A DNA stretch of 64,000 nt from a virus. Lineage: Duplodnaviria > Caudoviricetes. A program made the position numbers and the translations under genes. Below are positions 10,804-60,462 of this stretch, piece after piece. Under the pieces are notes generated by a model, which searched no databases, had not been told where the DNA came from, and worked only from the letters and a program-made list of their open reading frames with translations. How positions within the stretch are numbered: the stretch's first letter is position 1; every line of letters begins with the position of its first letter. The stretch lies in IMG/VR virus record IMGVR_UViG_3300029913_000001. The stretch is one strand, 5' to 3'.

Positions 10804-10901
10804 TTAATAATCCCTATATAATGTTTTTATCATAGTGAACTACCGCGATTCAATGCGTTCTAACGCACGTGAAGTACACACGGGCTTGACTCGTAAAGCC
10901 A

Positions 10902-27174: not shown

Positions 27175-27219
27175 AATGTCCCTTTCATTTATAAGTATAA
27201 AACATTATTCATACGTAAG

Positions 27220-27810: not shown

Positions 27811-27833
27811 TATTCACCCCGTGCTAATTAGAT

Positions 27834-28286
27834 TTAAATTCGATATTGTAATTCCTTCTCAGTTTCTTGCTTAACTATAAATTTAATAGGTGGGCATAAT
27901 CCATTCCAAAATTCTGGTGTGCCATCTGGCATTTTTTTTCTTAGTGCATCATTTGTTACAATTAATTCTACTTCTCTCCAAGCCAAGCTCGATCTCGATT
28001 CATGCAGGGATAAAATTTCAAATCGAAATTTGTCTTTTCCTCTTAAGGTAATTTCTTCATTTAATGTCTTACAACTACCGGTATATTTTTTCCAATTCGA
28101 TTCATTTATTACTTTTTTTCTATTTGTTCTGTTTTTAATTTTTTTTCGGGTTGTCATAAAAAAGAATTTCTTGCCGATATATTTGCGATTGGTATCTATA
28201 CATGTAATTTTATACACAAAGCCAATCCATTCAGTTGGATCAAAATTAAATGGAAATTCCCAATGTCCTATGTCTATTTTTTCCAT
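27834..28286 (-). CDS. GIY-YIG nuclease-like protein
   Basis: GFVYKIT...KYIGKK and NWKKYTGS motifs. Confidence 0.7.
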   Translation of the reverse strand: MEKIDIGHWEFPFNFDPTEWIGFVYKITCIDTNRKYIGKKFFFMTTRKKIKNRTNRKKVINESNWKKYTGSCKTLNEEITLRGKDKFRFEILSLHESRSSLAWREVELIVTNDALRKKMPDGTPEFWNGLCPPIKFIVKQETEKELQYRI

Positions 28287-40646: not shown

Positions 40647-43600
40647 TTAAATAATGCCTCTTAACGGTGCAGTCGTTGTCATCGGAGAGAAGTGATGAAT
40701 ACCAGGGGGGATAATTGGCGAAATATTCCCAAGGTCGCCGCCGGAGTTCTTAAGACTCCACAATGCTTGAAAAATTGATGTTGGCGGGCGATCTCGAAAA
40801 ATATTTCCGGTAATTGCAGGCGGAGTAAAAGTAATTTCGGTATTTGTCCAGGTATATGGAAAATTAGTTATACCGGTGGATTGTAATGTTTGATCTATAA
40901 ATAAAATCAAATTATTATTAGCTATAGATGCTGTAATCCCCGAATAATTAGATAAAGAATTAATATCATTAACCAAAGTTAATGCATCAGTTCCAGATCG
41001 AGTGATAACCCAATCATTTACATTAAATGACGGTGTATTCAATACTAAATCTGACAGAGGAATACTTTTTGTAGATGCTAGTTGAGTATCAAGTGAGTAC
41101 AAATAAATTGCTCCTGTATTATTGTTACTACCAGGGCTGCCTACTATTAACTGATTATTCTGTACGTCTAATGACATCCCAAAATAGTAATCTGTACCAT
41201 TTGGCGGCTGTATAAATTGTGAAAGTGCGAAGCAAAATCCTTCGATTTGAATGACACTCCCCGCTAATAAATTAGGAGAAAAACTAATATTAGTAGGATT
41301 ATCACTCGGATATGAGTATTTCGAAGGTGATAATAATTGTCCATTAACAGTTATTGAAGAAATAGATGAAAATGGATTTATTGTTGTTATGTTGGCCGTA
41401 GCTGCGGCTTTATAAGTTTTTTCAATAACTCTATTAAAAATTATAATTCCACCAAAATTACTATTAAATTGTGGTACGCCGACAGCTATTATTTCTCCTG
41501 CTGCGTCGCACGCCATCGATGTCCCAAACCCAGAATTTTGTCCCGTCGGATCAATTAAACTGCCTTGAAATTTATAATATTTGGTTAAGCCAGATACTGA
41601 AACAATATCCGAATCAGAAATTATTATATTTGGATTAATTATATTAATCACATTACCCGAAGATATACTATAATCAATTCCGGGTACTAGAATATTTGGA
41701 ATAGCATTAGGATAATTTAAAACAATTTTTATGCTATATTCATCTAGAATGCTGTTATTAACTGTAATTGAATTACTTGTCGTTGAAAGAACTGAATATG
41801 AAAGTAACGGAACCGTTTGCAGTGAATATACTGCTATACCGGCAAATCCCGCAGCGGTCATAGATTGAATTGAGACATATAACCAATTATTATCACTCAT
41901 TGCAAAATTATAACCAAAATTTGAATTATTTAAAGTTGGCATGGTAACACCATCGCCGCTTAAAATTTGAGTGACAATTGGTACATTTAAGTCGTTTAAT
42001 TGAGTAATATATACCTGTCCAATATTAGTAAGAATATTATTGTATCTTGTTGTTGCTGAGATTGCTCCTATTCCTTGATGGCATATAACTTTTCGGCCCA
42101 AATTAAAGGTTGTCGGATTTAACGGCTCAATTGCATATATTTTAGAATCTAACGCAGGTAGAGCAATATTATTTGAAGTAATTGTTTGTGATAACACTCG
42201 TATTTCTACTTCTCCAAAACCATCAGCCGATGATGGTTTTCCGGACCATATCATTTGTGAAGCAGAATCATAGAATAAAGAGGCAACTAAATCTTGATTA
42301 ATTACATCCTCATATGCTATTTCGGTGGCATATGGGGTAATTAGTGTATATGCTGCTTCACCAAAAGAATCGGTTGTAACATATATATGATCGTCAACCG
42401 CTGATATATTACTTTCGGCTATAGATTTTCCTCTTAGACTTCGGTTAGTCCATATTGACAATTCATCCCACGCCGGAACGTAACTAATATTTGAGATATT
42501 TGAATTTGCAAAATTACCTACAATCGTTAGATTTGCATAGCTATTTGCAGTAGGTGCAATATAGTAATCTAAAATTTTAAAAGTTCCTCTGATGGAAATA
42601 TTTGAATTAGTATCAGAATGATCAATAATAATAACATCATTTTTAACTACTCCGATATCCGTCGAAATTCCAAAACTAATAGAATTAGATGTTAGTTGGG
42701 TTATAGAGTTTATTTTTGTGTTTGCTCCGGTAAAAGTTATAACATCCCATTGATTTGGTCCATCGGCAAGTGTATTAGACTCGATCCAAAATGAACCCTG
42801 ATTTTCAGCGATTTTTAATATATTATCTTGTGAGGTGCTTTGCATCATTGTCGAAATATTTGCAAAGAATAATGATGCTTCATCTGATTCGATAAATTCT
42901 GGAATTTTTTGATAGGCCTGAGAAATAATATTTTCTGGTAATATTGGCCCGCCGTCAATGAATTTAGGATTGGTTAATTTAAGATTACCATAATTTTGAA
43001 TAAAATCATTCTGCCAGTTAGTAGATTTTTCATATAGATTAAATGGAGTAACTTGAATTGTTGAGGTATCGTTGATATCTGGAGTAGAGACAAACGATAT
43101 AACCAATGGATTTTGTGTATTGGTTGAGGGTGGAAGACTCACGTCACCATATCCGGTTCTAGCTGTGGCACCGTATTCACCGACTTTCATTGCGTATTCT
43201 TCATTTAATGAAACCTGGGTGTTAAACTTCGAGGTAGACCCGCGTCCGTAACTGTTCAGCGCATTTACCGTGCCTTTTTCTTTAATCCATCCTCGATAAA
43301 AATTTGTTTGCCCGGCTGGATCGATGCCCAATGAAGATAGCCAGTCTCGCTCGACGTACCCAATAGTGTTATTTCTTAGTGTCACTAAGTCTGTTAAATA
43401 TGGTCGATAATTAATATTGTATGCATTACTTAAATCAACAGCTTTAAGTGATAGGTTTGGTAGTAATTGATTTGTAAAAGTTGTAGAAATACGCTTAAAT
43501 TGACTATATTGGAAAGAAGCAGCTCCTATAATGTCAGAGTTCGCGATGTAATTAAAATTTTTCCATTTAACCACTGCACCCAATAGATAATCTTTATTTG

Positions 43601-46600
43601 GAATCCAGGAATCAACTTGATTTGTTGTTAAAATAAAGCCAGGAATATCTAGAGAGCCAGTCCAGTTGGCTGTTTTCTGCCCAGATATTAAGAGTCTATT
43701 TTGTCGCGATCCAGTGACGGGGTCGTAAATTATATCATTAAATTCTGAAACATTATTAATAACAAATCGGTGTTCATAGTTAACAATATTTGCAGCGATG
43801 CACGCAAATACGCTGCCGTCTTGATTTGTTATAGATACTGTATTCCCAGTTCTATATACATCGAAATATTTAGGATCAACAGAATTACCATTTACATCGA
43901 GAACTAGACTAGACAGTGGATCCGATAAATCATATAAAGTTCCGGACGTTGCTGTGTATTCAATTATTGCAGAACTAGGATTAAGAACTAATGATAGATC
44001 ATTGCTTCCCCAATTAACTAGACTCCATTTAACAAATTGCAGAGCCGCATTTGACCAGTCGATTTTATCTTGATCGATGTTTACATTAAATGAAATTCCA
44101 TTTGTTAATAAAAATTGACCATATCCTGCAAGAAAATTAATAACCGATTGCTGATCCGGCAATGTTGTATTATAAGGTATAATTGTTGTTTTACTACTGA
44201 AAATAGCAGGATATGTAAAGTTATTATTTCCAACTCCCAACGGAATCGACGCCGCGGTGGTGGCAGCGGCATAAATGGTAAAGTATGGATTATTACGATT
44301 GTATCCAGTTATTTTATACCCCGTATTATTGCCGGCAATTGAGATAATTACCCCACTATAATTGATTGTACCTACCGGGGTGCTAGTATTAAGGAACAAG
44401 GAGTAATCGGCATCCGGGATCATTTCCTCGGCCCCGACATCTGCTGGGTTGTTCGGCGAAGCAAATACCGATAAATTTTGAACATCGGTAAATCCTGCCA
44501 TACTGTAAGCTAATTCTACAAATGTAGAATTTAATGTTGTTCTTAATATAGAAGGATCCTGCCCATTGCGTCGAATATATTCTACTGAATAATTAACGAT
44601 GCTATTAACAGGGGTTGCATCGACGCTATTAATTATTATCTGATTATTTGAAGCGAAAAAATTATTTTGAAATTTAAATTGATATGCCCCGTTCGTTGGG
44701 GTATAATTATTCATATCCCACGTGGTACCTAGCATGAATAAAGGATTTTGAAGAATTAATGCGCGTAATCTTGAAAACGGATATATGCTACTTCGTTTCC
44801 AAGCAGTTTCTACTGGGCCGCAGTCTCCATAAATAAATCCATCGGGTGAGGAGCTATTATTAAATGTTCCTACTACTGCCTCATTAGGATTCAATAAAAT
44901 ACCATTTTCGTTCACGGGAATAACATCCAGCATTCCCACTCTGGTTCCATAACTACTAAGGGAAATGCCATTTGGATTACGAATAATACCATTTGCAATA
45001 TCATTCCACATTACATTATTTTCGCCGGTATATGGTGCTGGACCATATGTTGCATCCCACCATGACGGCTTAATCGACAGATTAAGCATTTCCCATGGAC
45101 GAGTATTTACATTCTCGGAATTATAGAACCAATCATAAATTCCCCTCCAGTATCCTAATAATGGTTGCCCAAATTTATCAAGACTTGAATTCCAGTTCCA
45201 GGTAAATAGATTATTCTCGTCGTAGAAATTATTATCTGAACTGATATTATATTGTGCCGTCCATTCATAAAACATTCTTTGCGAAATATTTAATTGTTCG
45301 GCTTCAGAATAAACGCCGGTTGCAAATTTACTTGTTTGATGAACCCGGGTTTCTATAATATCAACCCACTGTTGATTGTTAACCTTAAGATTATTATATA
45401 CACGTAATTCATAATCCAAAAGTAAATTATCACGATAATCATTGAAGCATTCTGTTATGCTTCCGTCATGACCTTGAATAACTTTTCTAGGAGTTTGATA
45501 TGTATAATCGATATACATTTGCGGAATGAATGCCGCAGCAAGACCTAACTTAGTTGGAGTTGCCGGTATGAAAGATCCACTAGTGTTGGAAATCTCATAT
45601 ATATTAATTAAATCTTTTAGGTTTAATGTTCGTAATATAGTTAGTATATTATCTGTAGTTTTATAATCAATTCCATACGTAAGTTGGGTTCCATTTATGT
45701 AAACCTGTAACGATTGATAATTTGAAGCATTCCAATTATAAACTTGTGTTAAATTAAATGTAACAGCTCTAACATTAGAAACTGTTATCGACGTTTGCTT
45801 CCCGCCCCAGTAACACATATCGCTTGAAGCCCAGGGTTGGCCAGATGTGTAAATCGAGGCAATAGTCTGTAATGCGGTATCAACCACCTGTTTCGATGAT
45901 AAATTTTGCGCATTTGAAATCTGGGAAAACGTATTAATTAATTTTTGTTTAAAGGAAATATAGTCTTCACCCGCTGATCTAATAGCCTGATCTATATCAA
46001 ACTGGGGGTTTGTTAATAATAGGGCTGGCAAAATTGGTAATGATTCTTGATATAGCATACTTCCAGCAACGCCCTGATAAGAATTAAGCTGTAAGTCTAT
46101 TATGCGGCTAGAATCATTTGCGTTAACCTGGCTTGTAGTAGCATGATCTCTAATATTACTCATTGTTAATACAGGCAAACTTTGGCCTAGAGGATTATTG
46201 CTAAATGCCGAAGGAACGTCGTACCAAGCATTTGTTATTGGTGTTGCACTTTGAATTTTAAGAAAAACAACACTATTTACAGAGATTAGATCAAATTTAA
46301 TGGTAACAACAATTTTTTCACCGAGTTGGACAACGGTAAATTGATCGGCTGATAGTTTGGTGCCATCTACAAAAATCTGTGGTGACAATCCATTTAATAA
46401 TGTTCCAACCATTCGAATAATATTCGATCCAAAAGCGACAGTATTTTGATATAATTGCCTATCACCGTTAACATATTGCCACGCATCATATATTGATTCA
46501 TCATGGGAAATCGAATCAATTTGGTGCGCTCTTCCTATAATAATGCTTTGCGGATTGGTTCCTGTAGTTAGATAGGAAAAAGTATCAGATACATAATTAT

Positions 46601-47969
46601 TTGTAAAAATAACATCGTTTAGATTGCCAATTGGACCATATGACAGCGGAAATCCCAATACAGAATCATTTAATCCTACTCCAATTTCATATGAAAAAAG
46701 ACTGCTGCCGGCAAAATCTGAATCTGGATAAAATGAAACATTAGCAAGACTATTACCATTCAGATCAAACACATCAAATAACGGCGCCTGATTAATACCG
46801 GTTTTATTCTGCGAGGATACAGCCCAATTTGATCCGTCAAATATTATTGTCTCATTGCTGCTTGTAACCAATGTACAATTATTCTCGACCGCGACTTGCG
46901 ATGGGGAAAGATGAATTACAAAGTTATTTGTATTATTTGGATCAATAAAATTAACGGTATAAAGTGTTGCTCGTACGTTGCTGTTTTTGTCGCCGGCAAA
47001 AATTACACTATCACCAGATTTTAGTGATGTACCATTATATGAAAAACTAGCTGCACCTTGTACAATTGAAAAAGCATTAGGTGTGTAAAAATCGACGTAT
47101 GTAACTGGTGATAGACCAATTCTTCCCTGATCAAATAAAACTAAAGGTATAAATTCAATTATTGGCCGATTTGCTGCTATGAAACTCTGGGGAGTATTTT
47201 CCAAGGACAGCGCTGATATTATAGCATTGACTGTATCTTTATGTACCCATAAGTTTGAGCGACTCCATAAATTAAGATCTGGAGCAGAACGGTTTATTGT
47301 CAAATAATCAGGAGGATTATTTTGATCGGCGGCAAACGAAGGAGTTAGAATGTTTGTTAACGGAATTAAAACAATTTCTTTTCCAACACCTTCAACAATA
47401 TAACTTACGTTAGCAATTGATACAATCATGCCGTCTAATAATGTTATATTATCTGATGTTATATAAGAAATATGGCCCTGCACATTATTAATAGAATCAT
47501 TAATTTCTATGCTATTATTCCAGTACCATGCATTAACGGATTGAATATTATCTACCGGTTGATACAGCCAATAATAATTTTGATAATTTATTAATTTGTC
47601 GATGTCGACAAATCCCTTCCAACTATACATTCCGGAAGTTAATATTCGAGCCCAGTCAGATACGATGCCATCTTTGTTTGAGGTAGCATTAAGTACATCA
47701 ATAAAATTAGAAATATTGGTTATGTTATTTTGGTCGTCTGTCGTAACAAACGCTGATTCTAATTGATAATTCTGCCTAGGCGCGGTTGACTCTAATAGGT
47801 AAGAGCCGTCTAGCAATGTGCCATTTTTCCATTGTCTTCCGATATAACCATTAAATCTAGATAGTTGTGGTGGGGAAGTTAGCACATCTAACGTGCTATC
47901 TAGAAATCTTTTATTCGGACGCGTTCGTAAATATGGCGGTAAAAAATCTATTGTTTTTGATATTGGCAT
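40647..47969 (-). CDS. Giant baseplate-wedge-like structural protein, part 1
   Basis: 2440-aa Asn/Ser/Thr-rich ORF with late-type ATAAATA 5 nt before the ATG, in the structural module. Confidence 0.7.
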   Translation of the reverse strand: MPISKTIDFLPPYLRTRPNKRFLDSTLDVLTSPPQLSRFNGYIGRQWKNGTLLDGSYLLESTAPRQNYQLESAFVTTDDQNNITNISNFIDVLNATSNKDGIVSDWARILTSGMYSWKGFVDIDKLINYQNYYWLYQPVDNIQSVNAWYWNNSIEINDSINNVQGHISYITSDNITLLDGMIVSIANVSYIVEGVGKEIVLIPLTNILTPSFAADQNNPPDYLTINRSAPDLNLWSRSNLWVHKDTVNAIISALSLENTPQSFIAANRPIIEFIPLVLFDQGRIGLSPVTYVDFYTPNAFSIVQGAASFSYNGTSLKSGDSVIFAGDKNSNVRATLYTVNFIDPNNTNNFVIHLSPSQVAVENNCTLVTSSNETIIFDGSNWAVSSQNKTGINQAPLFDVFDLNGNSLANVSFYPDSDFAGSSLFSYEIGVGLNDSVLGFPLSYGPIGNLNDVIFTNNYVSDTFSYLTTGTNPQSIIIGRAHQIDSISHDESIYDAWQYVNGDRQLYQNTVAFGSNIIRMVGTLLNGLSPQIFVDGTKLSADQFTVVQLGEKIVVTIKFDLISVNSVVFLKIQSATPITNAWYDVPSAFSNNPLGQSLPVLTMSNIRDHATTSQVNANDSSRIIDLQLNSYQGVAGSMLYQESLPILPALLLTNPQFDIDQAIRSAGEDYISFKQKLINTFSQISNAQNLSSKQVVDTALQTIASIYTSGQPWASSDMCYWGGKQTSITVSNVRAVTFNLTQVYNWNASNYQSLQVYINGTQLTYGIDYKTTDNILTILRTLNLKDLINIYEISNTSGSFIPATPTKLGLAAAFIPQMYIDYTYQTPRKVIQGHDGSITECFNDYRDNLLLDYELRVYNNLKVNNQQWVDIIETRVHQTSKFATGVYSEAEQLNISQRMFYEWTAQYNISSDNNFYDENNLFTWNWNSSLDKFGQPLLGYWRGIYDWFYNSENVNTRPWEMLNLSIKPSWWDATYGPAPYTGENNVMWNDIANGIIRNPNGISLSSYGTRVGMLDVIPVNENGILLNPNEAVVGTFNNSSSPDGFIYGDCGPVETAWKRSSIYPFSRLRALILQNPLFMLGTTWDMNNYTPTNGAYQFKFQNNFFASNNQIIINSVDATPVNSIVNYSVEYIRRNGQDPSILRTTLNSTFVELAYSMAGFTDVQNLSVFASPNNPADVGAEEMIPDADYSLFLNTSTPVGTINYSGVIISIAGNNTGYKITGYNRNNPYFTIYAAATTAASIPLGVGNNNFTYPAIFSSKTTIIPYNTTLPDQQSVINFLAGYGQFLLTNGISFNVNIDQDKIDWSNAALQFVKWSLVNWGSNDLSLVLNPSSAIIEYTATSGTLYDLSDPLSSLVLDVNGNSVDPKYFDVYRTGNTVSITNQDGSVFACIAANIVNYEHRFVINNVSEFNDIIYDPVTGSRQNRLLISGQKTANWTGSLDIPGFILTTNQVDSWIPNKDYLLGAVVKWKNFNYIANSDIIGAASFQYSQFKRISTTFTNQLLPNLSLKAVDLSNAYNINYRPYLTDLVTLRNNTIGYVERDWLSSLGIDPAGQTNFYRGWIKEKGTVNALNSYGRGSTSKFNTQVSLNEEYAMKVGEYGATARTGYGDVSLPPSTNTQNPLVISFVSTPDINDTSTIQVTPFNLYEKSTNWQNDFIQNYGNLKLTNPKFIDGGPILPENIISQAYQKIPEFIESDEASLFFANISTMMQSTSQDNILKIAENQGSFWIESNTLADGPNQWDVITFTGANTKINSITQLTSNSISFGISTDIGVVKNDVIIIDHSDTNSNISIRGTFKILDYYIAPTANSYANLTIVGNFANSNISNISYVPAWDELSIWTNRSLRGKSIAESNISAVDDHIYVTTDSFGEAAYTLITPYATEIAYEDVINQDLVASLFYDSASQMIWSGKPSSADGFGEVEIRVLSQTITSNNIALPALDSKIYAIEPLNPTTFNLGRKVICHQGIGAISATTRYNNILTNIGQVYITQLNDLNVPIVTQILSGDGVTMPTLNNSNFGYNFAMSDNNWLYVSIQSMTAAGFAGIAVYSLQTVPLLSYSVLSTTSNSITVNNSILDEYSIKIVLNYPNAIPNILVPGIDYSISSGNVINIINPNIIISDSDIVSVSGLTKYYKFQGSLIDPTGQNSGFGTSMACDAAGEIIAVGVPQFNSNFGGIIIFNRVIEKTYKAAATANITTINPFSSISSITVNGQLLSPSKYSYPSDNPTNISFSPNLLAGSVIQIEGFCFALSQFIQPPNGTDYYFGMSLDVQNNQLIVGSPGSNNNTGAIYLYSLDTQLASTKSIPLSDLVLNTPSFNVNDWVITRSGTDALTLVNDINSLSNYSGITASIANNNLILFIDQTLQSTGITNFPYTWTNTEITFTPPAITGNIFRDRPPTSIFQALWSLKNSGGDLGNISPIIPPGIHHFSPMTTTAPLRGII

Positions 47970-48380: not shown

Positions 48381-51300
48381 TTAGTTTCCTTCGCAGTGAT
48401 AGAAGAGGTTGCCGGTCAGTGATGGGAAGGTGAACGTCACCGCCGTGTTGCTTTGTGCGCTGTTGTAGACGTTGGTTGCCAGCGTTGTACTCGCGTTCGC
48501 CGTGCAAAACGCCGCATTTGTCCATCCAGAATTGGCAAAGGTGATAGTCACGGATGTTGCCGCGCTCAGGCCGGTGATCTCGCCACCCGCATTGGTGGAG
48601 TAGGCCGCGATAGTTCCCGCTGAGGTTATGGGCGCTGTTGCTGTGATGTGCTGAGTGCCGTTCAACCAGGTTCCCACCGTTGCAGTGTTGCCCACCGTTG
48701 AGGTGTTGCTGCCGTTCCCAACTGCTCCGTTGCCAATCACATTTTCATTCGTGTCGCCGCTGGCCTTTGCCTCCGTGTTAGCGCCTAGGTAGACGCTGTT
48801 TGAAGAGGTTGCGTTGGCTGTCGAACCGTCGCTGATAAATTGACCAGCCTGGTAACCCTGCGCGGAGTTGTAGTTGCCGGTCGTGTTGGAGTAGAGGACA
48901 TTGTACCCCTGCGCGGAGTTGTAGTTGCCGGTCGTGTTGGAGTAGAGGGCATTGTACCCCTGCGCGGAGTTGTAGCTGCCGGTCGTGTTATATGTTCCGC
49001 CCCCGCCCTCGAAAATGTTGTGCAAAGAAGCCAAGCCTTGATACAGCATGGTAGTCGATACTGCGCCAGTCGAGTCTTTCCCCGTGTACGAAAAGGTTGT
49101 GATGGGGTTGATCTTCTTTGCGCTGATCGCTATCGTCCCGTTAAAAGCCGCAGTCGGCGTGTAGGTAAGCGAAGTTCCATTCGCCTTCGGACTGAATGTG
49201 AGTGTGCTGCTTGCCGCCGTGCTGCTGGTATACGTCTGTGCTGTCCCGATTGCGACTGTTACCGTCCCACTGCCCGTGTTGCCTGTTATTCCTGCCGAAA
49301 TCTGGTAAAAACTTCCACTCGTAAATCCTGTGCAAGTCAGCGGTGCGGTCGTTCCAGGTGCAACGTAGTTGGGATAAGTCCCTGTCCAGCCGGTGCCGCT
49401 GCATGTTCCGCTGGTGGTCAGTTCTGGTCCAAGCGAGGCGGAATCTGTGGCTGATGTGGCTGCCGGAGATGTAATCGAGCCTACAGTTAGGATCGGAGTG
49501 CTCAAACCTCCGATTGGAGTCAGGGTCCCCGAATCGTTCAGCGTCATAAGCGACTGCCATGCAGTTCCGCTGCTATTCGGAGCCCACCACTGATGGGCAT
49601 AAGAAGACGCCCCGGTATAGAGTCCCGTGTACCAGTCTGCCTCTCCGTTTCCCGTGGAGGCGTTGAAGCCCGCCATTGCCTCAGATTGAGACGCGAACGG
49701 AAGCACGCCACCTGCATAGAGATTAGCGCCCCCGACGCTACCAAACGAGCGGATAGAGCTTGCTTCCAGCGTGATTGTATTTCCATATTTGCAAACTCCA
49801 TTGTATTGATTGCAAAAGGTGTTAGTACCTGTTGGGTCGGTTACAGCATACCCATCAAATGATCCGAAAAAGAAGTTTCCTGCATTAGTCGTCGTGTTGT
49901 TGATGACGATCCCGTTGTTCGTGTCCCAGATAGAGAGGTTGGTCCAATAATTCTGCTGCCAGGTGCCCGCTCCATCGATTTGGATTCCAATATCGCCGGG
50001 GATCAGGGCCTGAAAATTGTCCGCGATAAAGTTATTTCGTGCTATCAGTCCCGTCGATGTCGGATTGATTTCCGTGCCGATGATCGAATATGAATCCTGC
50101 ACCCCATTAAAGCTTACCGAGTTGATGAAACCTGTCGTTGTGGCTGTGAGGTATCGACCGTATTGAAAGCCCTCAATCGTCACATCGTTGAACGCGACCG
50201 TGTAAATCGACTGCGTAGCCGCGTTCGTTGCAGATATATAGATCGCAGTGCCCGTTCTGACGGGATAGGCGGTGAGTTTCGAGTGCTCTAAGGTTGTCTG
50301 ACTTCCATCGCGGTAATTGTCAGTATAGCTTATGACTTCGCCAGAGAATGCCGCTTGATTTGAGGCGTCAAACCAACATCCGGTGATGATAGAATTGTTG
50401 TTCTGAATCACCATCGTTTCAGCGGCGGTCGTCGGCTGAAATTCCTGCCCAAAGTCGCATTGTAACTTCTGGCCGTTCCCTATAGTAATCTGCGCCATTG
50501 GGAAGACGCCTGTGCCAAGTCCGCGTGTATCGCATGTTCCTTTTCCAGACGGCAGCGCGGCAAGGCAGGCATTGATCTTTGCACCCACATCTGCGCCGGG
50601 AAACTGTGCCACAGAATAAACTCCATTCACAGCGCCAGCCGCGACGTTGCCTGAGAACGATGCGCTGGTGCCGCTGAGTGCGCCGGTCAGCGTGCCGCCA
50701 GTGAGGGGAAGATAGCTGCCGCTACCGCCTGCGCACCCCGTCGTTGTAAGCGCCCCGCCTGTGCCGTTGGCGCAGACCGGAGACGTGCTGGGAGTGATGT
50801 TAGTAGGAATAATCGCCGGAGAAGACATCGATCCTGGAACTAGAAAATTTCCGCTTGGATCAAGCGTCGCACAGAGAGATGGATTATTGGACCCGTACAT
50901 GCAGTACCACTTGAAACCTGCTGTGTTGAAGGTTTTGAGATAAGCACCGAATGCTGCGCCCTGCTGGTAATAGTTTCCACCAGCACCGTTTACCCCGAAA
51001 CCGTAGCCAGTTAGATTCTCTCCAGCGGAAGTAACCCCATTATTGAGCAGAGAAGAGTTAGTCTGAAAAGAAGTCGTCGCCGTTCCATTCGTGGCTGTAC
51101 CAGAAGCGAAACTATTATTACTGACGTTTCCCCATATCGGGCTGAAGTAACTTAAGCTTCCAATCGAAGCTGCAAAGGTGTTTGTGTTTTGAAATACAGC
51201 GCCGGTGCCGTCTATAGAAGCGCCTCCGCCGATGAAGCTATTTTGTATAAAACTTGTGCCTGAGTACAGAATTCCGACACCACCAATTCCGCTCGGATTT

Positions 51301-52331
51301 TCATAGGTATAGCCAAAAAACGTATTATTAATCGCATTGCCTAGAGTAGGATTGCCCGTGGCATTTAGTTCGATTCCAGCCCCGCTTCCGGTAGCCTGCA
51401 CATCTTCGAATATATTATCGTTCACCCACCCGTTAGAAGAAGCCGATATATAAATGCAGCGATAACCTCCGTAGCAGCGGATGTGCTTGAATGGAATGAA
51501 GGCAATGCCATAATACGAGGCGGTTGAAGATACATAAATGCCATAACCGCCCGGCTGCCCTTCGGCAGACTCCGCACTCACATTGAAGTTGAAGTCCTCA
51601 ACTCCCCCCGTGGCACCATCAATAGAGTTTTCGTTGATTGTGATTTCCTTCCCGGTATAAGCTGCTGTGCTAGGAAAAGTAGTATGAAGGCCCTTGATCG
51701 TTCCGTTCGGTCCCTTTAGGAACATGTTCGTGGAGTTTGTCGAAGGAAGTACATTGGTGGCAGGATCAAAGAGCAACGTTTGGGAAGGCCCTGACATGCT
51801 ACCCGGAGCAACATGCACCTGCGCCGCAATATAGATTGTTAATGCTCCGTAGCATCGCGCATCCACTGTGCCGCCGCTAGAGATGTCCGCGAGAGCCGCC
51901 GTAATCTGCACATCGGCGGTCGCCCCAGCATAAGAGCAGGAAGAGACAATACTGTTCACAGCGCCAGCCGCGACGTTGCCTGAGAATGTGCCATTACCAG
52001 TGGACCCGTCCAGGGTAATCGACGGTGCGATCGGAGTGCCTACCGCGAAGGTACCAGGAGCTGTTACAACCTGCGAACTACCACTGCCTGTTGCGGTCCA
52101 TCCAGACGGCAATCCTGTAAAACTAGAGCAAGTAATTGCTCCATTAGATGCGGTTGCTAATACAGGACAGTTAGCCGCAATGCCGGCGCCAGTAAAAAGA
52201 TTTGCCCAAGCTCCTGCGGCGGTATTTGCTCCGGTTCCCCCATTATGGATGTTAACGGTTGTTATATTTTGGGCAATTAAATTAATGGGCAATAAACATA
52301 AAAATAAGAATAATAATTTTTTAGCTAACAT
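48381..52331 (-). CDS. Tail spike/fibre-like protein with two beta-helix-like modules and a signal-peptide-like N-terminus
   Basis: 1316 aa, Gly/Thr/Ser/Asn rich and clearly more GC-rich than its flanks. Contains GADV..I.A.L...GG motifs of pectin-lyase-like domains and NTTGNYNSAQGY repeats. Confidence 0.7.
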   Translation of the reverse strand: MLAKKLLFLFLCLLPINLIAQNITTVNIHNGGTGANTAAGAWANLFTGAGIAANCPVLATASNGAITCSSFTGLPSGWTATGSGSSQVVTAPGTFAVGTPIAPSITLDGSTGNGTFSGNVAAGAVNSIVSSCSYAGATADVQITAALADISSGGTVDARCYGALTIYIAAQVHVAPGSMSGPSQTLLFDPATNVLPSTNSTNMFLKGPNGTIKGLHTTFPSTAAYTGKEITINENSIDGATGGVEDFNFNVSAESAEGQPGGYGIYVSSTASYYGIAFIPFKHIRCYGGYRCIYISASSNGWVNDNIFEDVQATGSGAGIELNATGNPTLGNAINNTFFGYTYENPSGIGGVGILYSGTSFIQNSFIGGGASIDGTGAVFQNTNTFAASIGSLSYFSPIWGNVSNNSFASGTATNGTATTSFQTNSSLLNNGVTSAGENLTGYGFGVNGAGGNYYQQGAAFGAYLKTFNTAGFKWYCMYGSNNPSLCATLDPSGNFLVPGSMSSPAIIPTNITPSTSPVCANGTGGALTTTGCAGGSGSYLPLTGGTLTGALSGTSASFSGNVAAGAVNGVYSVAQFPGADVGAKINACLAALPSGKGTCDTRGLGTGVFPMAQITIGNGQKLQCDFGQEFQPTTAAETMVIQNNNSIITGCWFDASNQAAFSGEVISYTDNYRDGSQTTLEHSKLTAYPVRTGTAIYISATNAATQSIYTVAFNDVTIEGFQYGRYLTATTTGFINSVSFNGVQDSYSIIGTEINPTSTGLIARNNFIADNFQALIPGDIGIQIDGAGTWQQNYWTNLSIWDTNNGIVINNTTTNAGNFFFGSFDGYAVTDPTGTNTFCNQYNGVCKYGNTITLEASSIRSFGSVGGANLYAGGVLPFASQSEAMAGFNASTGNGEADWYTGLYTGASSYAHQWWAPNSSGTAWQSLMTLNDSGTLTPIGGLSTPILTVGSITSPAATSATDSASLGPELTTSGTCSGTGWTGTYPNYVAPGTTAPLTCTGFTSGSFYQISAGITGNTGSGTVTVAIGTAQTYTSSTAASSTLTFSPKANGTSLTYTPTAAFNGTIAISAKKINPITTFSYTGKDSTGAVSTTMLYQGLASLHNIFEGGGGTYNTTGSYNSAQGYNALYSNTTGNYNSAQGYNVLYSNTTGNYNSAQGYQAGQFISDGSTANATSSNSVYLGANTEAKASGDTNENVIGNGAVGNGSNTSTVGNTATVGTWLNGTQHITATAPITSAGTIAAYSTNAGGEITGLSAATSVTITFANSGWTNAAFCTANASTTLATNVYNSAQSNTAVTFTFPSLTGNLFYHCEGN
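48856..48989. repeat. 51-bp coding tandem repeat, about 2.6 copies (17-aa YNSAQGYNxLYSNTTGN)
   Basis: Units start at 48856, 48907 and 48958. Confidence 0.9.
50626..51986. repeat. Identical 32-bp direct repeats flanking the first beta-helix module
   Basis: TTCACAGCGCCAGCCGCGACGTTGCCTGAGAA at 50626-50657 and 51955-51986 (encodes FSGNVAAGAVN). Confidence 0.9.
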
Positions 52332-55621: not shown

Positions 55622-55779
55622 TCGGATAATTTTTCTATCAAAATATAATTTTTAGCTTCGATTTCAGTATCAAATACTCGTAAAAATTGGGCGAGCCCTC
55701 GATAATCTAAGCGATAAACTAGCCATCTATCGCATATTAATATAGGTGGCAAAATTTCATATGTATATTCAGTATTCAT
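55618..55779 (-). CDS. Small protein (53 aa), KLSE-tail family; not in the ORF track
   Basis: MNTEYTYE...FDTEIEAKNYILIEKLSE. Confidence 0.6.
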   Translation of the reverse strand: MNTEYTYEILPPILICDRWLVYRLDYRGLAQFLRVFDTEIEAKNYILIEKLSE

Positions 55780-55799
55780 ACAATTTGTATACCCCGTTT

Positions 55800-56143
55800 C
55801 TTTTACATAGGCGGGGTCACCCTACGGCGCACAGTTTTTAGGCTAGTGCGAGCTCGCGATTGCTAATTTTTACAGGGTACGTAAAAATCTTGGTCGCGCC
55901 ATTGACGATTGAATCGGCAATTATACATATCATTTTTCAATTATGGGCGAAAATAACAAAGACCCAAGCCGTCCACATGACTTTCATTTATCCGTCGAAA
56001 CCGTGACGCGCCCTAGTAGAATACTGGGGTGTAACACCACATCCATCTAATACGAAACTATCTAACTAGTTCAGTATTCTTTTGGACGCGCGGAGAGTTG
56101 AACTCCGGTCCGCATAAAGAAATTCATGCTTCGTACGACTCTA
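55800..56143 (-). ncRNA. ssrA: Circularly permuted (two-piece) tmRNA
   Basis: T-arm CGGAG-TTCAACT-CTCCG and 3' acceptor strand CGCGTCC-A (56107-56083) lie upstream of the 5' strand GGGCGCG-TCACGGTTTCGAC (from 56013). G3-U70 pair; P2 pairings between the pieces; resume GCC at 55918 after ATAATT; tag ends at TAA 55840-55838. Confidence 0.88.
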
Positions 56144-56145
56144 AC

Positions 56146-56838
56146 TTATGCAAATTTTTTTTCGTTGATCATAATTGGTTTCGAATACAATTCTTTCATT
56201 ACTTTTGCATAACCGACTGAATTAGTACACAATGTCTTAAGATGATCCCGATATAATCTTTTTCTGAGTATTGCATGATGCCCTTCATCCAAATTAGTTA
56301 ATAAACCACCATTAGTTAAAAGTCCAAAAATATCGATTAATTTAGATTCAGCTTGAAATGCTTCTGCTTCAGTTAAACTTCCTTTAACTCGAAATACTAT
56401 ATGCTTTTCATTTAACGAATTTATAGATTGCAAAATTTTTCGATGTGTTTCATTTCGCCGCGAATTTTTATCACGATCATTTACTCCTTTTCCTATATAA
56501 AAAGGAACATACTCCATACCCAGGCTAGCGGCAAACGCGTCTTTTGCTTTTTCTAAATCAAGATCAAACAATGGATTCAAGTGAGCATACACAAAATATT
56601 TCTTTTCGTTTGATAATTCTAAATCTTCATAAATCGAGCTAATATCGGAATTCCATATAGAATTATATGCTTCGAATTTTGGACCCTGCCTAACGATATT
56701 CTCCGCTCCTAGACCATTCTTTTCTAACGCTCGAATTCTAGATTTTAAATATCGAACTTTACCTTTCAGCGAATCAATCGAATTCCAATTAACCTTAATA
56801 TTCACTTTTATTTCCTCAATATTTATAGTATACAACAA
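56146..56838 (-). CDS. GIY-YIG (LEM-3-like) endonuclease
   Basis: YFVYAH...FYIGKG...R and EAFQAESKLIDIFG...LTN motifs; late-type TATAAATA overlaps the annotated TTG start, so the true start is probably the GTG just downstream. Confidence 0.7.
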   Translation of the reverse strand: MLYTINIEEIKVNIKVNWNSIDSLKGKVRYLKSRIRALEKNGLGAENIVRQGPKFEAYNSIWNSDISSIYEDLELSNEKKYFVYAHLNPLFDLDLEKAKDAFAASLGMEYVPFYIGKGVNDRDKNSRRNETHRKILQSINSLNEKHIVFRVKGSLTEAEAFQAESKLIDIFGLLTNGGLLTNLDEGHHAILRKRLYRDHLKTLCTNSVGYAKVMKELYSKPIMINEKKFA

Positions 56839-57141: not shown

Positions 57142-57412
57142 ATCACTCCTAATATTAAGAAGATATCGAACGTTGGTATTTGCGCCTTACAAATATGATA
57201 CACCTTAAATAAGTCTAATTTAAGAATATTTGCAATCGGTGATACTCCATTCAGGATATCGATTTCTATCCTCGAGCTCGATACCATCTTAATTCTTTTA
57301 AATCAACTGCATAAAATCATATTATTTTTCATATTTAAAATTGGGGGCGCACGAAGCGATAATCAACATGCGCCGCCTCCACCACCGAATCAGAAAGGAT
57401 TCGGACTTATTA

Positions 57413-59142: not shown

Positions 59143-60462
59143 TTATACCTTTCCGGAAGAAGCGGTAACCAACGCTACCGCTTCTTCCCTTGTAGTAACT
59201 ACGCCTTCGAGTTGAGCAGTTTCGACCGCTTCTAGCAAAGTCTTGAATACCGGGCCTGCCTTAAATCCCATAGCAAGCAAATCGTTTCCGGTGAGCAAAC
59301 GAACGGGATGAAGTTCATCCTTCATGTTGTCGCGAAACCCACGGCAAAAATTGTTTGCGGTGAGATCGCCATTACTACCAAGGCTGTCAACCCGGTTAAG
59401 TTCAAGCAGTTCAGAAAAATTTTCCATACGAACAAACCGCTTCATCTTTGACAACGACATCTTTTCCGTGTTAAAAAACCGCATATGATTTTCAACCAAA
59501 GACGACACCGTGCCGACAACTTCATTTGAAAACCGAAAATCACGAAGCAGCCGTTCAGCCATACGAGCCCCAACGTGCTCATGCCCGTGAAACTGATTAT
59601 GTCCGGTCTTTTCATTTGTCTTTGCTGTGACCGGCTTCCCTACATCGTGAAGCAAGGTTGCAAGCGCCAACGTAAGAGAGCAGCCGGATTCGAGCATAGA
59701 AAGCATCTTCATTGTATGCTGCCACACATCGCCTTCCGGATGCCACATTGAATTCTGCGTAACCCCATGCATATTGCACAGTTCCGGCATAAAATGAACT
59801 AGCAAACCGGTGGTGTCCATTGTCTGAAAAGCTACCTGTACATTACCGCCAGTAAGAATCTTTGCCAGTTCACCAGCAACACGATCAGCGGGCAAAGTCG
59901 TAACATCCTTCGAACGCAATGTCATTGCGGACACGGTAAGCGGATCAAGCATGAACCCCAAACGAGCTGCAAATCGAACGGCTCGCAGCAGGCGCAAAGC
60001 ATCTTCTTGAAACCGATCGCTAGGATTGCCGACCGTGCGCAAAACCTTATTTTCGAGGTCGGCAAGGCCATTAACAAAGTCAAATACCTTGCCCGATTCG
60101 TCCATCAGAAGTGCATTGACTGTAAAATCACGGCGCTTAACATCTTCCCTAGGATCCGTTGTAAACTTAACAGAATCCGGGCGGCGATTGTCAGAATACG
60201 CACCATCCTCGCGGAAGGTTGCAACTTCGAACTGCTCACCATTCACATTAACAACCGAAACGCCAAAATTCTTACCAACCAATTTCGAGGTAGAAAACAA
60301 TTCGGTGACCTGATCAGGAGTTGCACTCGTGGCCAGATCCCAATCATGAACCGGAAGATTCAACAGTGAATCTCGCACGCAACCACCCGCGAAGTAGGAT
60401 TCAAATCCCGCATTCTTAAGGGTGACTAGTGCTACCATCGCATTGTGATTCATCTCAACCAT
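59143..60462 (-). CDS. cca: CCA-adding tRNA nucleotidyltransferase with HD domain
   Basis: GGCVRD...HDWDLAT, EVATFR, DVKRRDFTVNA, RFQEDALRLLRAVRF and LLHDVGK motifs. Confidence 0.93.
   Translation of the reverse strand: MVEMNHNAMVALVTLKNAGFESYFAGGCVRDSLLNLPVHDWDLATSATPDQVTELFSTSKLVGKNFGVSVVNVNGEQFEVATFREDGAYSDNRRPDSVKFTTDPREDVKRRDFTVNALLMDESGKVFDFVNGLADLENKVLRTVGNPSDRFQEDALRLLRAVRFAARLGFMLDPLTVSAMTLRSKDVTTLPADRVAGELAKILTGGNVQVAFQTMDTTGLLVHFMPELCNMHGVTQNSMWHPEGDVWQHTMKMLSMLESGCSLTLALATLLHDVGKPVTAKTNEKTGHNQFHGHEHVGARMAERLLRDFRFSNEVVGTVSSLVENHMRFFNTEKMSLSKMKRFVRMENFSELLELNRVDSLGSNGDLTANNFCRGFRDNMKDELHPVRLLTGNDLLAMGFKAGPVFKTLLEAVETAQLEGVVTTREEAVALVTASSGKV

What the first reader, a model, noticed from the sequence alone, without database searches (positions are those of the whole stretch)
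55800..56143. Circularly permuted, two-piece tmRNA gene carried by a phage
Seen on the minus strand, in this order: (a) a 3' piece of about 60 nt with T-arm CGGAG/TTCAACT/CTCCG and acceptor strand CGCGTCC plus discriminator A (56083); (b) a 69-nt intervening segment closed by a 9-bp inverted repeat (AGAATACTG 56080-56072 / CAGTATTCT 56026-56018); (c) the 5' piece GGGCGCG-TCACGGTTTCGAC (from 56013). The acceptor stem pairs 7/7 with a G3-U70 wobble, the alanine identity element. P2 helices pair across the two pieces (ATAAA/TTTAT, GAAA/TTTC, TCATGT/GCATGA, ACGGCT/AGTCGT). A resume codon GCC follows ATAATT and gives a 26-aa tag, ADSIVNGATKIFTYPVKISNRELALA*. Established: permuted tmRNAs occur in alphaproteobacteria, some cyanobacteria and betaproteobacteria, and jakobid mitochondria, and some phages carry one-piece tmRNAs. 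Inference: I know of no permuted tmRNA in a phage, so this may be an independent permutation event. CCA is not encoded.
Basis: partly seen in the sequence, partly recalled or inferred. Interest (0 to 1): 0.9.

Follow-up and report, generated by a model that had tools for sequence, protein, structure and literature searches.

The report
Two-piece tmRNA gene in jumbo phage
An uncultured giant phage from peat carries a rearranged ("two-piece") gene for tmRNA, the RNA that rescues stalled ribosomes. Such phage genes are already documented, so this is a new family member with a long conserved tag, not a first.

Summary
No downstream T-arm exists that would allow a one-piece gene. A homologue in a related peat phage (L015) has many compensatory base-pair changes and a 26-residue tag under peptide-level selection. 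Peat metatranscriptomes hold the locus, and two hold only the coding piece.

The window is a jumbo T4-like myophage (contig at least 293 kb), distantly related to Phosso, Atu_ph07 and PA5oct.

The novelty premise is wrong. Buchholz et al. 2022 list about 53 two-piece tmRNA structures in phages. I confirmed permuted genes in HTVC008M, S-SSM7, S-CRM01, phiCbK and, unannotated, in Phosso. This scan has also found many on other DNA.

"Independent permutation" is unresolved. The gene fits no alpha, beta or cyano lineage model, but neither does phiCbK's. Candidate hosts (Acidobacteriota, inferred only from the CCA enzyme) carry one-piece tmRNAs.

New here:
- a small peat-phage tmRNA family with a conserved KIFTY-core tag
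- only pseudoknot PK1 retained
- CCA and spacer length differing between the two homologues
- patchy presence among syntenic relatives

The parts
56083..56143 (-). Acceptor piece (gene-proximal). It holds the 5' strands of the four P2 segments, GGAC, the T-arm (56107-56091), the acceptor 3' strand CGCGUCC (56090-56084) and discriminator A (56083). CCA is not encoded.
   Evidence: Rfam alignment, cofold, sequence. Contigs from RNA libraries end at 56143 and 56144 in two samples.
56014..56082 (-). Intervening segment of 69 nt, removed on maturation. It is closed by a 9-bp inverted repeat (56080-56072 / 56026-56018). It is too short to hold a gene.
   Evidence: Sequence and fold at -16.9 kcal/mol, z = -2.2. 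The homologue L015 has only about 24 nt here, after an encoded CCA.
55968..56013 (-). 5' end of the coding piece: acceptor 5' strand GGGCGCG (56013-56007), the D-arm analogue UCACGGUUUCGAC, and the 3' strands of P2.
   Evidence: RNA-library contigs in two further studies end at 56005, 8 nt inside the predicted 5' end.
55934..55966 (-). Pseudoknot PK1: stem UGGGU (55966-55962) / GCCCA (55948-55944), and loop UUUUC (55953-55949) pairing with GAAAA (55938-55934).
   Evidence: The hairpin is in the Rfam consensus structure. The second stem was read from the sequence and was not tested by covariation.
55838..55918 (-). Tag reading frame: resume codon GCC (55918-55916), 26 codons, stop TAA (55840-55838). 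Peptide ADSIVNGATKIFTYPVKISNRELALA.
   Evidence: ARAGORN. Compared with L015, 14 of 26 residues are identical and 7 of those use different codons. Differences by codon position are 10/6/15, and the other two frames contain stops.
55792..55829 (-). 3' trailer with two hairpins: CGCC-GUAG-GGUG (55829-55818) and CCCCG-loop-CGGGG (55816-55792). The second has an invariant loop core, UGUAAAAGAAA.
   Evidence: Both hairpins recur in L015 with compensatory changes (ACUC/GAGU and UUCCG/CGGAA), and a 14-nt loop-to-stem block is identical.
59143..60462 (-). Phage CCA-adding enzyme (class II nucleotidyltransferase with an HD domain), 3 kb upstream. It is a possible but not dedicated helper for the CCA-less acceptor piece.
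   Evidence: Pfam and PHROG hits. It is conserved in relatives that lack the tmRNA, and in L015, where CCA is encoded.

Best explanation
The locus is a functional, phage-encoded, circularly permuted ssrA gene.

Proposed mechanism:
1. It is transcribed on the minus strand as one precursor, probably by read-through from the upstream ORF. No sigma-70-like promoter or terminator lies next to it.
2. The precursor folds so that the upstream acceptor piece pairs with the downstream coding piece through the acceptor stem and a four-segment P2 helix.
3. tRNA-processing enzymes remove the 69-nt hairpin spacer: RNase P at G56013, and a 3' endonuclease or exonucleases back to A56083.
4. Because CCA is not encoded, a CCA-adding enzyme (the host's or the phage's own) completes the 3' end.
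5. The G3-U70 pair directs charging with alanine.
6. With host SmpB the two-piece RNA enters stalled ribosomes. Translation resumes at GCC 55918 and appends a 26-residue tag ending in Ala.

Shown here: the gene architecture, its conservation with compensatory changes, peptide-level selection on the tag, and the presence of the locus in RNA libraries.

Inferred from established tmRNA and tRNA biology: the processing enzymes, alanylation, use of SmpB, and the fate of tagged proteins.
For: Detection:
- ARAGORN calls a permuted tmRNA.
- RF04321 scores 60.3 bits against a cutoff of 47, E = 3.5e-9, over the full model length.
- Cofolding and the precursor fold both recover the tRNA-like domain and P2.
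- There is no alternative downstream T-arm or acceptor strand.

Homologue:
- A related phage, L015, also present as L017, L018 and L022, scores 73-75 bits at the syntenic place.
- Fully compensatory changes against L015: 4 of 5 T-stem pairs, 2 of 7 acceptor pairs with G3-U70 kept, 2 outer P2 pairs, and both trailer hairpins.
- Tag: 14 of 26 identical residues, 7 of them through synonymous codons, with third-position excess.
- L015 has a stop codon, not an ATG, upstream in the tag frame, so the frame is not a conventional ORF.

RNA libraries (4 libraries, 3 studies):
- Two hold contigs that end at 56143/56144 and span the spacer, which is precursor-like.
- Two hold only 55830/55855-56005, the coding piece, one at depth 27.

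Precedent: phage two-piece tmRNAs are reported in PMC9004378 and were verified here.
Against: - No direct evidence exists for cleavage, CCA addition, alanylation or tagging.
- The RNA evidence is from assembled contigs, which cannot prove ends or strand, and DNA carry-over is possible. Two libraries also cover neighbouring genes.
- The whole-gene folding z-score is only -1.7.
- The tag ends in -LA here and -NA in L015, not the canonical -AA, so recognition by ClpXP-type proteases is uncertain.
- No SmpB was found in the window, in the fetched parts of relatives, or in complete Phosso, so the RNA would depend on the host's.
- The gene is missing from five syntenic relatives, so it is dispensable.
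- Only two distinct sequences support the covariation.
Confidence: 0.85

Rival explanations
1. Origin rival A. The gene descends from one of the established permuted lineages (alpha, beta or cyano type). It was captured by an ancestral phage and then diverged beyond recognition by the lineage-specific models.
For: - All well-characterised permuted tmRNAs fall in those lineages (PMC11915505).
- The nearest cultured relative, Phosso, carries a clean alpha-type gene (alpha_tmRNA 108 bits).
- phiCbK, a phage of an alphaproteobacterium, also fails every lineage model (best is beta at 32.7 bits) while passing RF04321 at 71 bits. Divergence alone can therefore produce the pattern seen here.
- Jumbo phages of this group have about 35% GC whatever the host, so composition does not exclude a proteobacterial host.
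Against: - The best lineage-model score is only 34.6 bits (beta, cutoff 84) for the window, and 39 bits for L015, covering the tRNA-like domain only.
- There is no BLAST similarity to the alpha or cyano phage references beyond noise.
- Phosso's gene is not at the syntenic place.
- The phage CCA enzyme's nearest cellular relatives are Acidobacteriota, which carry one-piece tmRNAs.
Confidence: 0.5
2. Origin rival B. This is an independent permutation of a one-piece tmRNA, for example of the host's type, that arose within this phage lineage by tandem duplication and loss.
For: - The gene fits none of the three lineage models.
- Candidate host phylum Acidobacteriota: 40 of 41 sampled genomes have a standard tmRNA, and 0 of 151 have a genuine permuted one.
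- The window's 5' half of the tRNA-like domain (19-mer GCGUCACGGUUUCGACGGA), its CGGAC and its T-loop UUCAACU match acidobacterial one-piece genes. The resume region matches one of them at 13 of 14 positions.
- Earlier follow-ups in this scan describe other phage two-piece families that appear to derive from one-piece types (unchecked here).
Against: - The matching stretch is not specific. It is 18/18 identical in a Smithella genome and absent from the sister gene L015.
- The host assignment rests on one gene at 46-51% identity.
- No similarity was found outside the tRNA-like domain.
- phiCbK shows that failing the lineage models proves nothing.
- No alphaproteobacterial or betaproteobacterial genome set could be sampled for comparison.
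Confidence: 0.3
3. The RNA is made but does not perform full trans-translation. It might act as a decoy that titrates host SmpB or AlaRS, as proposed for the domain-only RNA of phage DS6A, or it might be a decaying relic.
For: - PMC4131195 and PMC11915505 describe phage and plastid forms that lack a tag and may inhibit tmRNA.
- The gene is dispensable among relatives.
- The tag has a non-canonical C-terminus.
Against: - The tag frame is intact in both homologues, with synonymous-site excess and 14 of 26 conserved residues.
- PK1 and the AUAAUU-GCC resume context are kept.
- A decoy would not need these features.
Confidence: 0.08
4. Detector artefact: a tRNA-like fragment that happens to lie upstream of the 5' half of a one-piece tmRNA, or a conventional 31-codon ORF starting at ATG 55933.
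For: - This artefact does occur. Five Acidobacteriota genomes pass the RF04321 cutoff only because a tRNA-Asp or similar sequence lies just upstream of a standard tmRNA.
- The window has an in-frame ATG five codons before the resume codon.
Against: - There is no downstream T-arm or acceptor strand, and no tRNA is called anywhere in the window.
- P2 pairs between the two pieces and covaries with L015.
- L015 lacks the ATG and has a stop there.
Confidence: 0.02

Closest known systems
Phage-encoded two-piece tmRNAs: Methylophilales phage Melnitz, Pelagibacter phages HTVC008M and Mosig, cyanophages S-SSM7, S-CRM01, S-CAM1/3, and Caulobacter phages phiCbK, CcrSC, CcrBL9, CcrPW (Buchholz et al. 2022, PMC9004378, Table S1)
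   Same: - A permuted ssrA gene in a large tailed phage, several of them T4-like or jumbo, passing RF04321 (71-91 bits in my check).
- Tags are often long: 19-31 residues in S-CRM01, phiCbK and S-SSM7.
- No phage SmpB is required.
   Different: - No detectable sequence similarity beyond the tRNA-like domain.
- The source is peat, whereas most listed cases are marine or aquatic.
- HTVC008M and the cyanophage genes pass their host-lineage models (alpha 84; cyano 74-109 bits), but this one passes none. In that respect it resembles phiCbK.
- The tag family (A-x-S-x-[VI]-N-G-x-x-KIFTY-x-V...EL-x-x-A) is its own.
Unannotated alpha-type two-piece tmRNA of Sinorhizobium phage Phosso (PV764938.1, 349596-350198, minus strand)
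   Same: It is carried by the nearest cultured relative by DNA polymerase (43% identity). It is a permuted gene in a jumbo myophage (RF04321 113 bits).
   Different: - Phosso's gene is a clean alpha type (alpha_tmRNA 108 bits), with the host-like tag ANDNVSTKVALAA, an encoded CCA and a spacer of about 430 nt.
- It is not at the syntenic locus, so it was probably acquired separately.
Bacterial two-piece tmRNA (Caulobacter; alpha, beta and cyano lineages; Rfam RF01849, RF01850, RF01851, RF04321)
   Same: The gene order is acceptor piece, spacer, coding piece. The two pieces are held together by the acceptor stem and P2. The number of pseudoknots is reduced, and tRNA-type processing is expected.
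   Different: - The gene is below cutoff on all three lineage models.
- CCA is not encoded in the window copy.
- The tag is 26 residues and ends in -LA rather than -AA.
- The gene is carried by a virus.
One-piece tmRNA of Acidobacteriota (candidate host phylum), e.g. loci L126, L136, L137
   Same: It has a near-identical 5' half of the tRNA-like domain, the same CGGAC, the same T-loop UUCAACU, and a similar resume context (AAUUGCC-R-AUUCAA).
   Different: - The gene order is standard, with four pseudoknots and 9-10-residue tags (ANNQFAYAA and similar).
- The shared stretch also occurs in other phyla, so it does not show descent.

Membership tests
tmRNA, permuted (two-piece) gene form (Rfam RF04321) | Score at or above the curated cutoff of the covariance model, over its full length | tested here: met
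   60.3 bits against 47, model positions 1-213 of 213, E = 3.5e-9. The homologue L015 scores 73-75 bits.
tmRNA, permuted (two-piece) gene form (Rfam RF04321) | tRNA-Ala-like acceptor stem of 7 bp with G3-U70 and discriminator A | tested here: met
   GGGCGCG / CGCGUCC-A, 7/7 pairs with G3-U70. L015 has GGGCCUG / CAGGUCC-A, with two compensatory pairs and G3-U70 kept.
tmRNA, permuted (two-piece) gene form (Rfam RF04321) | T-arm next to the acceptor 3' strand | tested here: met
   CGGAG-UUCAACU-CUCCG at 56107-56091. Four of its five pairs change compensatorily in L015 (ACCGG/CCGGU).
tmRNA, permuted (two-piece) gene form (Rfam RF04321) | Permuted order: the 3' half of the tRNA-like domain lies upstream of the 5' half, separated by a spacer, with no one-piece alternative | tested here: met
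   The order is shown. A scan of 1.2 kb downstream finds no acceptor plus T-arm candidate.
tmRNA, permuted (two-piece) gene form (Rfam RF04321) | A long P2 helix formed between the two pieces | tested here: met
   Four segments appear in the model alignment with one non-canonical pair. They are recovered by free cofolding. The outer segment covaries with L015, AGUCG/CGGCU against GCUCG/CGAGC.
tmRNA, permuted (two-piece) gene form (Rfam RF04321) | Pseudoknot PK1 just upstream of the resume codon | tested here: inconclusive
   The hairpin UGGGU/GCCCA is in the model's structure. The second stem, UUUUC/GAAAA, was read from the sequence only. The L015 alignment has non-canonical pairs in this hairpin.
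tmRNA, permuted (two-piece) gene form (Rfam RF04321) | A tag reading frame that opens with an alanine resume codon, ends at a stop, and is conserved as a peptide | tested here: met
   GCC 55918 to TAA 55838, 26 codons. 14 of 26 residues are identical to L015, 7 of them through synonymous codons, and the other frames are closed.
tmRNA, permuted (two-piece) gene form (Rfam RF04321) | Canonical degradation signal at the tag's C-terminus (…LAA or …AA) | tested here: not met
   The tag ends in -LALA in the window and -LVNA in L015. Only the final Ala is shared. This feature is typical rather than strictly defining.
tmRNA, permuted (two-piece) gene form (Rfam RF04321) | Maturation into two RNA pieces | tested here: inconclusive
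   RNA-library contigs: two libraries hold only 55830/55855-56005, the coding piece; two others span the spacer and end at 56143/56144. Contigs cannot prove ends or strand.
tmRNA, permuted (two-piece) gene form (Rfam RF04321) | Works with SmpB, is charged with alanine, and performs trans-translation | not testable with these tools
   No SmpB was found in the 64-kb window or the fetched parts of relatives (tblastn), nor in Phosso or the L018 record. One related contig does encode SmpB. The whole genome is not held.
Alpha-, beta- or cyanobacterial two-piece tmRNA lineages (RF01849, RF01850, RF01851) | Score at or above the cutoff of the lineage-specific model, which includes lineage-specific helices and termini | tested here: not met
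   The best is beta_tmRNA at 34.6 bits against a cutoff of 84, and the other two models score lower. L015 scores 39 bits on beta, over the tRNA-like domain only. Controls: HTVC008M alpha 84, S-SSM7 cyano 109, S-CRM01 cyano 74, Phosso alpha 108. phiCbK also fails, at 33 bits.

The most novel reading that the evidence does not exclude
This small family of peat jumbo-phage tmRNAs arose by its own permutation of a one-piece tmRNA, in phages whose hosts (possibly Acidobacteriota) use one-piece tmRNA. Its conserved 26-residue tag (KIFTY core, non-canonical C-terminus) is a phage-specific degron or sorting signal, read by the phage's own ClpA-type unfoldase rather than by the host's ClpXP route.
Probability: 0.15. 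Interest if true: 0.55.

Novelty: new member of a known kind. Interest (0 to 1): 0.3.

Why it matters
Phage-borne tmRNAs are a poorly understood form of takeover of the host's translation quality control. This case adds a soil and peat jumbo-phage family to a list dominated by marine phages.

It offers a natural comparison: two homologues that differ in whether CCA is encoded and in spacer length (69 against about 24 nt). That pair could be used to study how two-piece tmRNA precursors are processed.

The tag is long and under peptide-level selection, with a non-canonical end. That suggests it is read by something other than the standard ClpXP/SspB route, which would be worth testing.

The finding does not change the picture of where permuted tmRNAs occur, because phage examples, including jumbo phages, are already published.

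Tried and rejected
1. DNA similarity to 50,697 phage records, near and distant: no match.
2. Exact tRNA-like-domain patterns in IMG/VR: nothing, or only tRNA-Ile genes.
3. The search for related loci with the CCA enzyme in IMG/VR: nothing.
4. Metagenome pattern scan: 18 hits, only one a real tmRNA and it duplicates L018.
5. Leader-trailer terminal helix: no conserved pairing.
6. Apparent permuted tmRNAs in 5 of 151 Acidobacteriota: artefacts of a tRNA-Asp or other upstream sequence next to a standard tmRNA.
7. A handle labelled "Gammaproteobacteria" led to a phylum of genomes around 1 Mb, not Pseudomonadota. No alphaproteobacterial or betaproteobacterial genome set could be sampled.
8. BLAST ranking of both phage genes against 68 one-piece and 5 permuted references: only a short, non-specific match in the tRNA-like domain.
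9. ClpA homologue search for host clues: relatives carry no organism names.
10. The idea that the phage CCA enzyme exists to serve the CCA-less tmRNA: weakened. The enzyme is conserved in relatives without the tmRNA and in L015, where CCA is encoded.
11. The GIY-YIG-like ORF as a mobility partner of the tmRNA: it is unique to the window and unrelated to L015's upstream ORF.
12. Sharkady and Williams 2004, the paper that defines the lineages, is not held.
13. The MFE cofold of the L015 pieces did not give the canonical T-arm, so I used the covariance-model alignment instead.

Full report
WHAT IS THERE

On the minus strand between about 56143 and 55792 lies a circularly permuted tmRNA gene. ARAGORN reports a permuted tmRNA at 55747-56172 with the tag ADSIVNGATKIFTYPVKISNRELALA*. 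Rfam's tmRNA_permuted model (RF04321) matches 56140-55838 over its full length at 60.3 bits against a cutoff of 47, with E = 3.5e-9 for the whole 64-kb window. The only correction is that the resume codon GCC is at 55918-55916.

Free cofolding of the two proposed pieces, and folding of the whole precursor, recover the acceptor stem, the T-arm and P2. A pseudoknot PK1 (UGGGU/GCCCA plus UUUUC/GAAAA) precedes the resume codon. After the stop codon come two small hairpins.

THE FINDING'S OWN REFUTATION TESTS

- A covariance-model hit exists.
- A scan of the 1.2 kb downstream of the 5' piece finds no 7-mer that pairs 7/7 with GGGCGCG, and none of the 6/7 candidates follows a 5-bp T-stem. The upstream site scores 7/7 and 5/5. 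The upstream half is therefore not an att-like duplicate of a normal gene.
- This check mattered, because the permuted model can be fooled. Five Acidobacteriota genomes pass its cutoff only because a tRNA-Asp or similar sequence sits just upstream of an ordinary one-piece tmRNA. That situation does not apply here. ARAGORN finds no tRNA anywhere in the window, and P2 pairs across the two pieces.

CONTEXT

The window is phage DNA:
- Mtd_N and virion-protein hits, QueD, ThyX and a metallophosphatase
- a class II CCA-adding enzyme
- a family-B DNA polymerase split by an HNH endonuclease gene
- a two-ring ClpA-type ATPase next to a DnaJ-like gene

The nearest cultured relatives by DNA polymerase are jumbo myophages: Sinorhizobium phage Phosso, Agrobacterium phage Atu_ph07 and the Pseudomonas PA5oct group, at 42-45% identity. 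The window's ClpA-like protein is on record on a contig of 292,778 bp. The stretch occurs in 14 peat metagenomes and in peat metatranscriptomes. No whole genome is held.

A HOMOLOGUE, COVARIATION AND SELECTION

The CCA enzyme has close relatives on large uncultured contigs. Synteny is conserved: ThyX, metallophosphatase, CCA enzyme, orf96, a variable block, RNase T-like exonuclease, QueD.

One relative, L015, is a 148-kb contig whose CCA enzyme is 63% identical. The same gene occurs on IMG/VR contigs L017 and L018 and on L022. In the variable block it carries a permuted tmRNA of 73-75 bits with a 26-residue tag, ATSGINGSAKIFTYSVNLRNTELVNA.

Compared with the window:
- Four of five T-stem pairs change on both sides (CGGAG/CUCCG against ACCGG/CCGGU).
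- Two of seven acceptor pairs change on both sides, and G3-U70 is kept.
- Two outer P2 pairs change on both sides.
- Both trailer hairpins covary, around an invariant loop UGUAAAAGAAA.

In the tag, 14 of 26 residues are identical and seven of those use different codons. Nucleotide differences fall 10, 6 and 15 on codon positions 1, 2 and 3, and the other frames are closed. The tag is therefore selected as a peptide. The window has an in-frame ATG five codons upstream, but L015 has a stop there, so a conventional ORF does not explain the frame.

The two homologues differ in an instructive way. L015 encodes CCA and has a spacer of about 24 nt. The window lacks CCA and has a 69-nt hairpin spacer.

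Five other syntenic relatives (L011, L012/L013, L014, L037, L038) have no tmRNA in the fetched region. The gene is therefore accessory and patchily distributed.

EXPRESSION

All of the following comes from four peat RNA libraries in three studies.
- In two libraries (X15, X16), contigs cover 55840-56143 and 55877-56144. They span the spacer and stop within two or three bases of the upstream ORF's stop codon.
- In the other two (X17, X18), the only contigs on the 1.4-kb stretch are 55830-56005 and 55855-56005, one at depth 27.

That is what an abundant, separate coding piece beginning near 56013 would give, allowing for the usual loss of a few 5'-terminal bases. But these are assembled contigs. 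They cannot establish ends or strand, and DNA carry-over is possible. I treat this as suggestive only.

HOW IT PROBABLY WORKS

1. The precursor is probably made by read-through from the upstream gene. No promoter-like or terminator-like site flanks the gene above background.
2. It folds through the acceptor stem and P2.
3. The spacer is removed by tRNA-processing enzymes.
4. CCA is added, which is necessary in this copy.
5. The G3-U70 pair directs alanylation.
6. With SmpB the RNA rescues stalled ribosomes and appends the tag.

These steps are inferred from established tmRNA biology, not shown here. No SmpB gene is present in the window or in the fetched parts of relatives, nor in complete Phosso, so the host's SmpB is presumably used. 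One related contig does encode SmpB near its CCA enzyme.

The phage's CCA enzyme and ClpA-like ATPase could take part. Both, however, are conserved in relatives that lack the tmRNA, and the CCA enzyme is also present where CCA is encoded. They are not dedicated partners.

The tags end in -LA and -NA rather than -AA, so their fate is open.

COMPARISON WITH WHAT IS KNOWN

The claim that no permuted tmRNA is known in a phage is wrong.
- Buchholz et al. 2022 (PMC9004378) describe a two-piece tmRNA in phage Melnitz and report 53 two-piece structures among 133 unique phage tmRNAs. Their Table S1 lists jumbo Caulobacter phages (CcrSC, CcrBL9, CcrPW, phiCbK-like), cyanophages and pelagiphages.
- With the covariance model I confirmed permuted genes in HTVC008M (91 bits), S-CRM01 (83), S-SSM7 (79) and phiCbK (71). 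The listed call in Citrobacter phage Mordin did not hold up (30 bits).
- Phosso, the window's nearest cultured relative, carries an unannotated alpha-type gene at 113 bits.
- Long tags are not unusual in these genes: 19, 20 and 31 residues.
- This scan has also already recorded many phage two-piece tmRNAs on other DNA.

WAS IT AN INDEPENDENT PERMUTATION?

The window's gene is far below cutoff on the alpha, beta and cyano models; the best is beta at 34.6 bits against 84. HTVC008M and the cyanophage genes pass their host-type models, but phiCbK, whose host is an alphaproteobacterium, also fails (33 bits). Failure alone is therefore not evidence.

The phage CCA enzyme's nearest cellular relatives are peat Acidobacteriota, at 46-51% identity. 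In that phylum 40 of 41 sampled genomes have a standard tmRNA and none of 151 has a genuine permuted one. The tally of 40 includes G031, an unpublished genome. Without it the count is 39 of 40, and its sequence (L152) was left out of all comparisons.

The window's tRNA-like domain resembles acidobacterial one-piece genes. However, the shared 18-19-mer is equally present in a Smithella genome and is absent from L015, and nothing outside that domain aligns to any reference. I could not sample alphaproteobacterial or betaproteobacterial genomes. The question stays open. I put independent origin at about 0.3.

VERDICT

This is a real, conserved and probably expressed two-piece tmRNA gene in a peat jumbo phage. 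It is a new member of a known kind.

What is new is modest:
- a small, previously undescribed sequence family with a conserved 26-residue tag
- only PK1 retained
- a natural pair of variants with and without encoded CCA
- patchy presence within a variable block of otherwise syntenic phages

Noticed in passing
window 57343-57404 (+), and L011 8405-8446 (-): A 42-nt element, GGGGGCG...CGCCTCC-ACCA, whose ends equal the termini of acidobacterial one-piece tmRNAs, followed by a 7-bp hairpin. It is 66/70 identical in the closest relative L011, which lacks the tmRNA, and the 17-nt loop is identical. A CA..TG to AC..GT compensatory change supports a 9-bp hairpin register rather than the 7-bp acceptor register. 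On the transcribed minus strand it reads as a GC-rich hairpin followed by AAUUUU, a possible terminator. Whether it is a terminator or a remnant containing only the tRNA-like domain is undecided.
   Followed up: partly
L008 1458-2147 (-) = PV764938.1 about 349553-350242: Sinorhizobium phage Phosso has an unannotated alpha-type two-piece tmRNA (RF04321 113 bits, alpha_tmRNA 108 bits, tag ANDNVSTKVALAA) in a gap between annotated CDS 479 and 480. Its spacer is about 430 nt and contains same-strand ORFs of 51 and 57 codons, which I did not test.
   Followed up: partly
L132-L137 (Acidobacteriota genomes G128, G104, G092, G065, G082, G069): RF04321 gives above-cutoff false positives (50-58 bits) where a tRNA-Asp or other sequence lies just upstream of a standard one-piece tmRNA. 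This is a caution for automated calls of permuted tmRNA.
   Followed up: yes
L210 (Citrobacter phage Mordin, KT363872.2 29582-29770): The 'Permuted' tmRNA listed for Mordin in the published Table S1 scores only 30 bits on RF04321 (cutoff 47). Some ARAGORN-based permuted calls in phages of one-piece hosts may not be real tmRNAs.
   Followed up: partly
window 8414-12557 (-): The family-B DNA polymerase is encoded as two ORFs (10902-12557 and 8414-9622), with an HNH/homing-endonuclease ORF (9610-10803) between them. Atu_ph07 also annotates two adjacent polymerase CDSs.
   Followed up: no
window 24913-28286 (-): A two-ring ClpA-type ATPase (753 aa; AAA_2, AAA_lid_9, ClpB_D2-small), next to a DnaJ-like protein (196 aa) and a SegE-type GIY-YIG endonuclease (150 aa). 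No ClpP lies beside them. ClpA relatives at 50-60% identity occur on many large uncultured contigs.
   Followed up: partly
window 48381-52331 (-): A 1316-aa ORF lies in a block of 53% GC within a window of about 35% GC. It has no Pfam or PHROG hit. The neighbouring 2440-aa ORF (40647-47969) also has no Pfam hit.
   Followed up: no
window 56146-56838 (-): The ORF that ends 2-3 nt before the tmRNA gene has weak homing-endonuclease/GIY-YIG similarity (phrog_314 E = 3.6e-5; Pfam LEM-3 GIY-YIG below cutoff). It has no counterpart in any fetched relative, and L015 has an unrelated ORF in the same position.
   Followed up: partly
contig of P0013 (NCBI GCA_015689235.1, 192,592 bp; no DNA available): A related large contig encodes an SmpB (PF01668) about 5 kb from its CCA enzyme (57% identical to the window's). 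Some members of this phage group therefore carry tmRNA's protein partner.
   Followed up: no
L209 506-992 (-) (Caulobacter phage phiCbK): A GOLLD RNA (RF02032, 165 bits) lies in the tRNA cluster about 0.5 kb from phiCbK's two-piece tmRNA.
   Followed up: no
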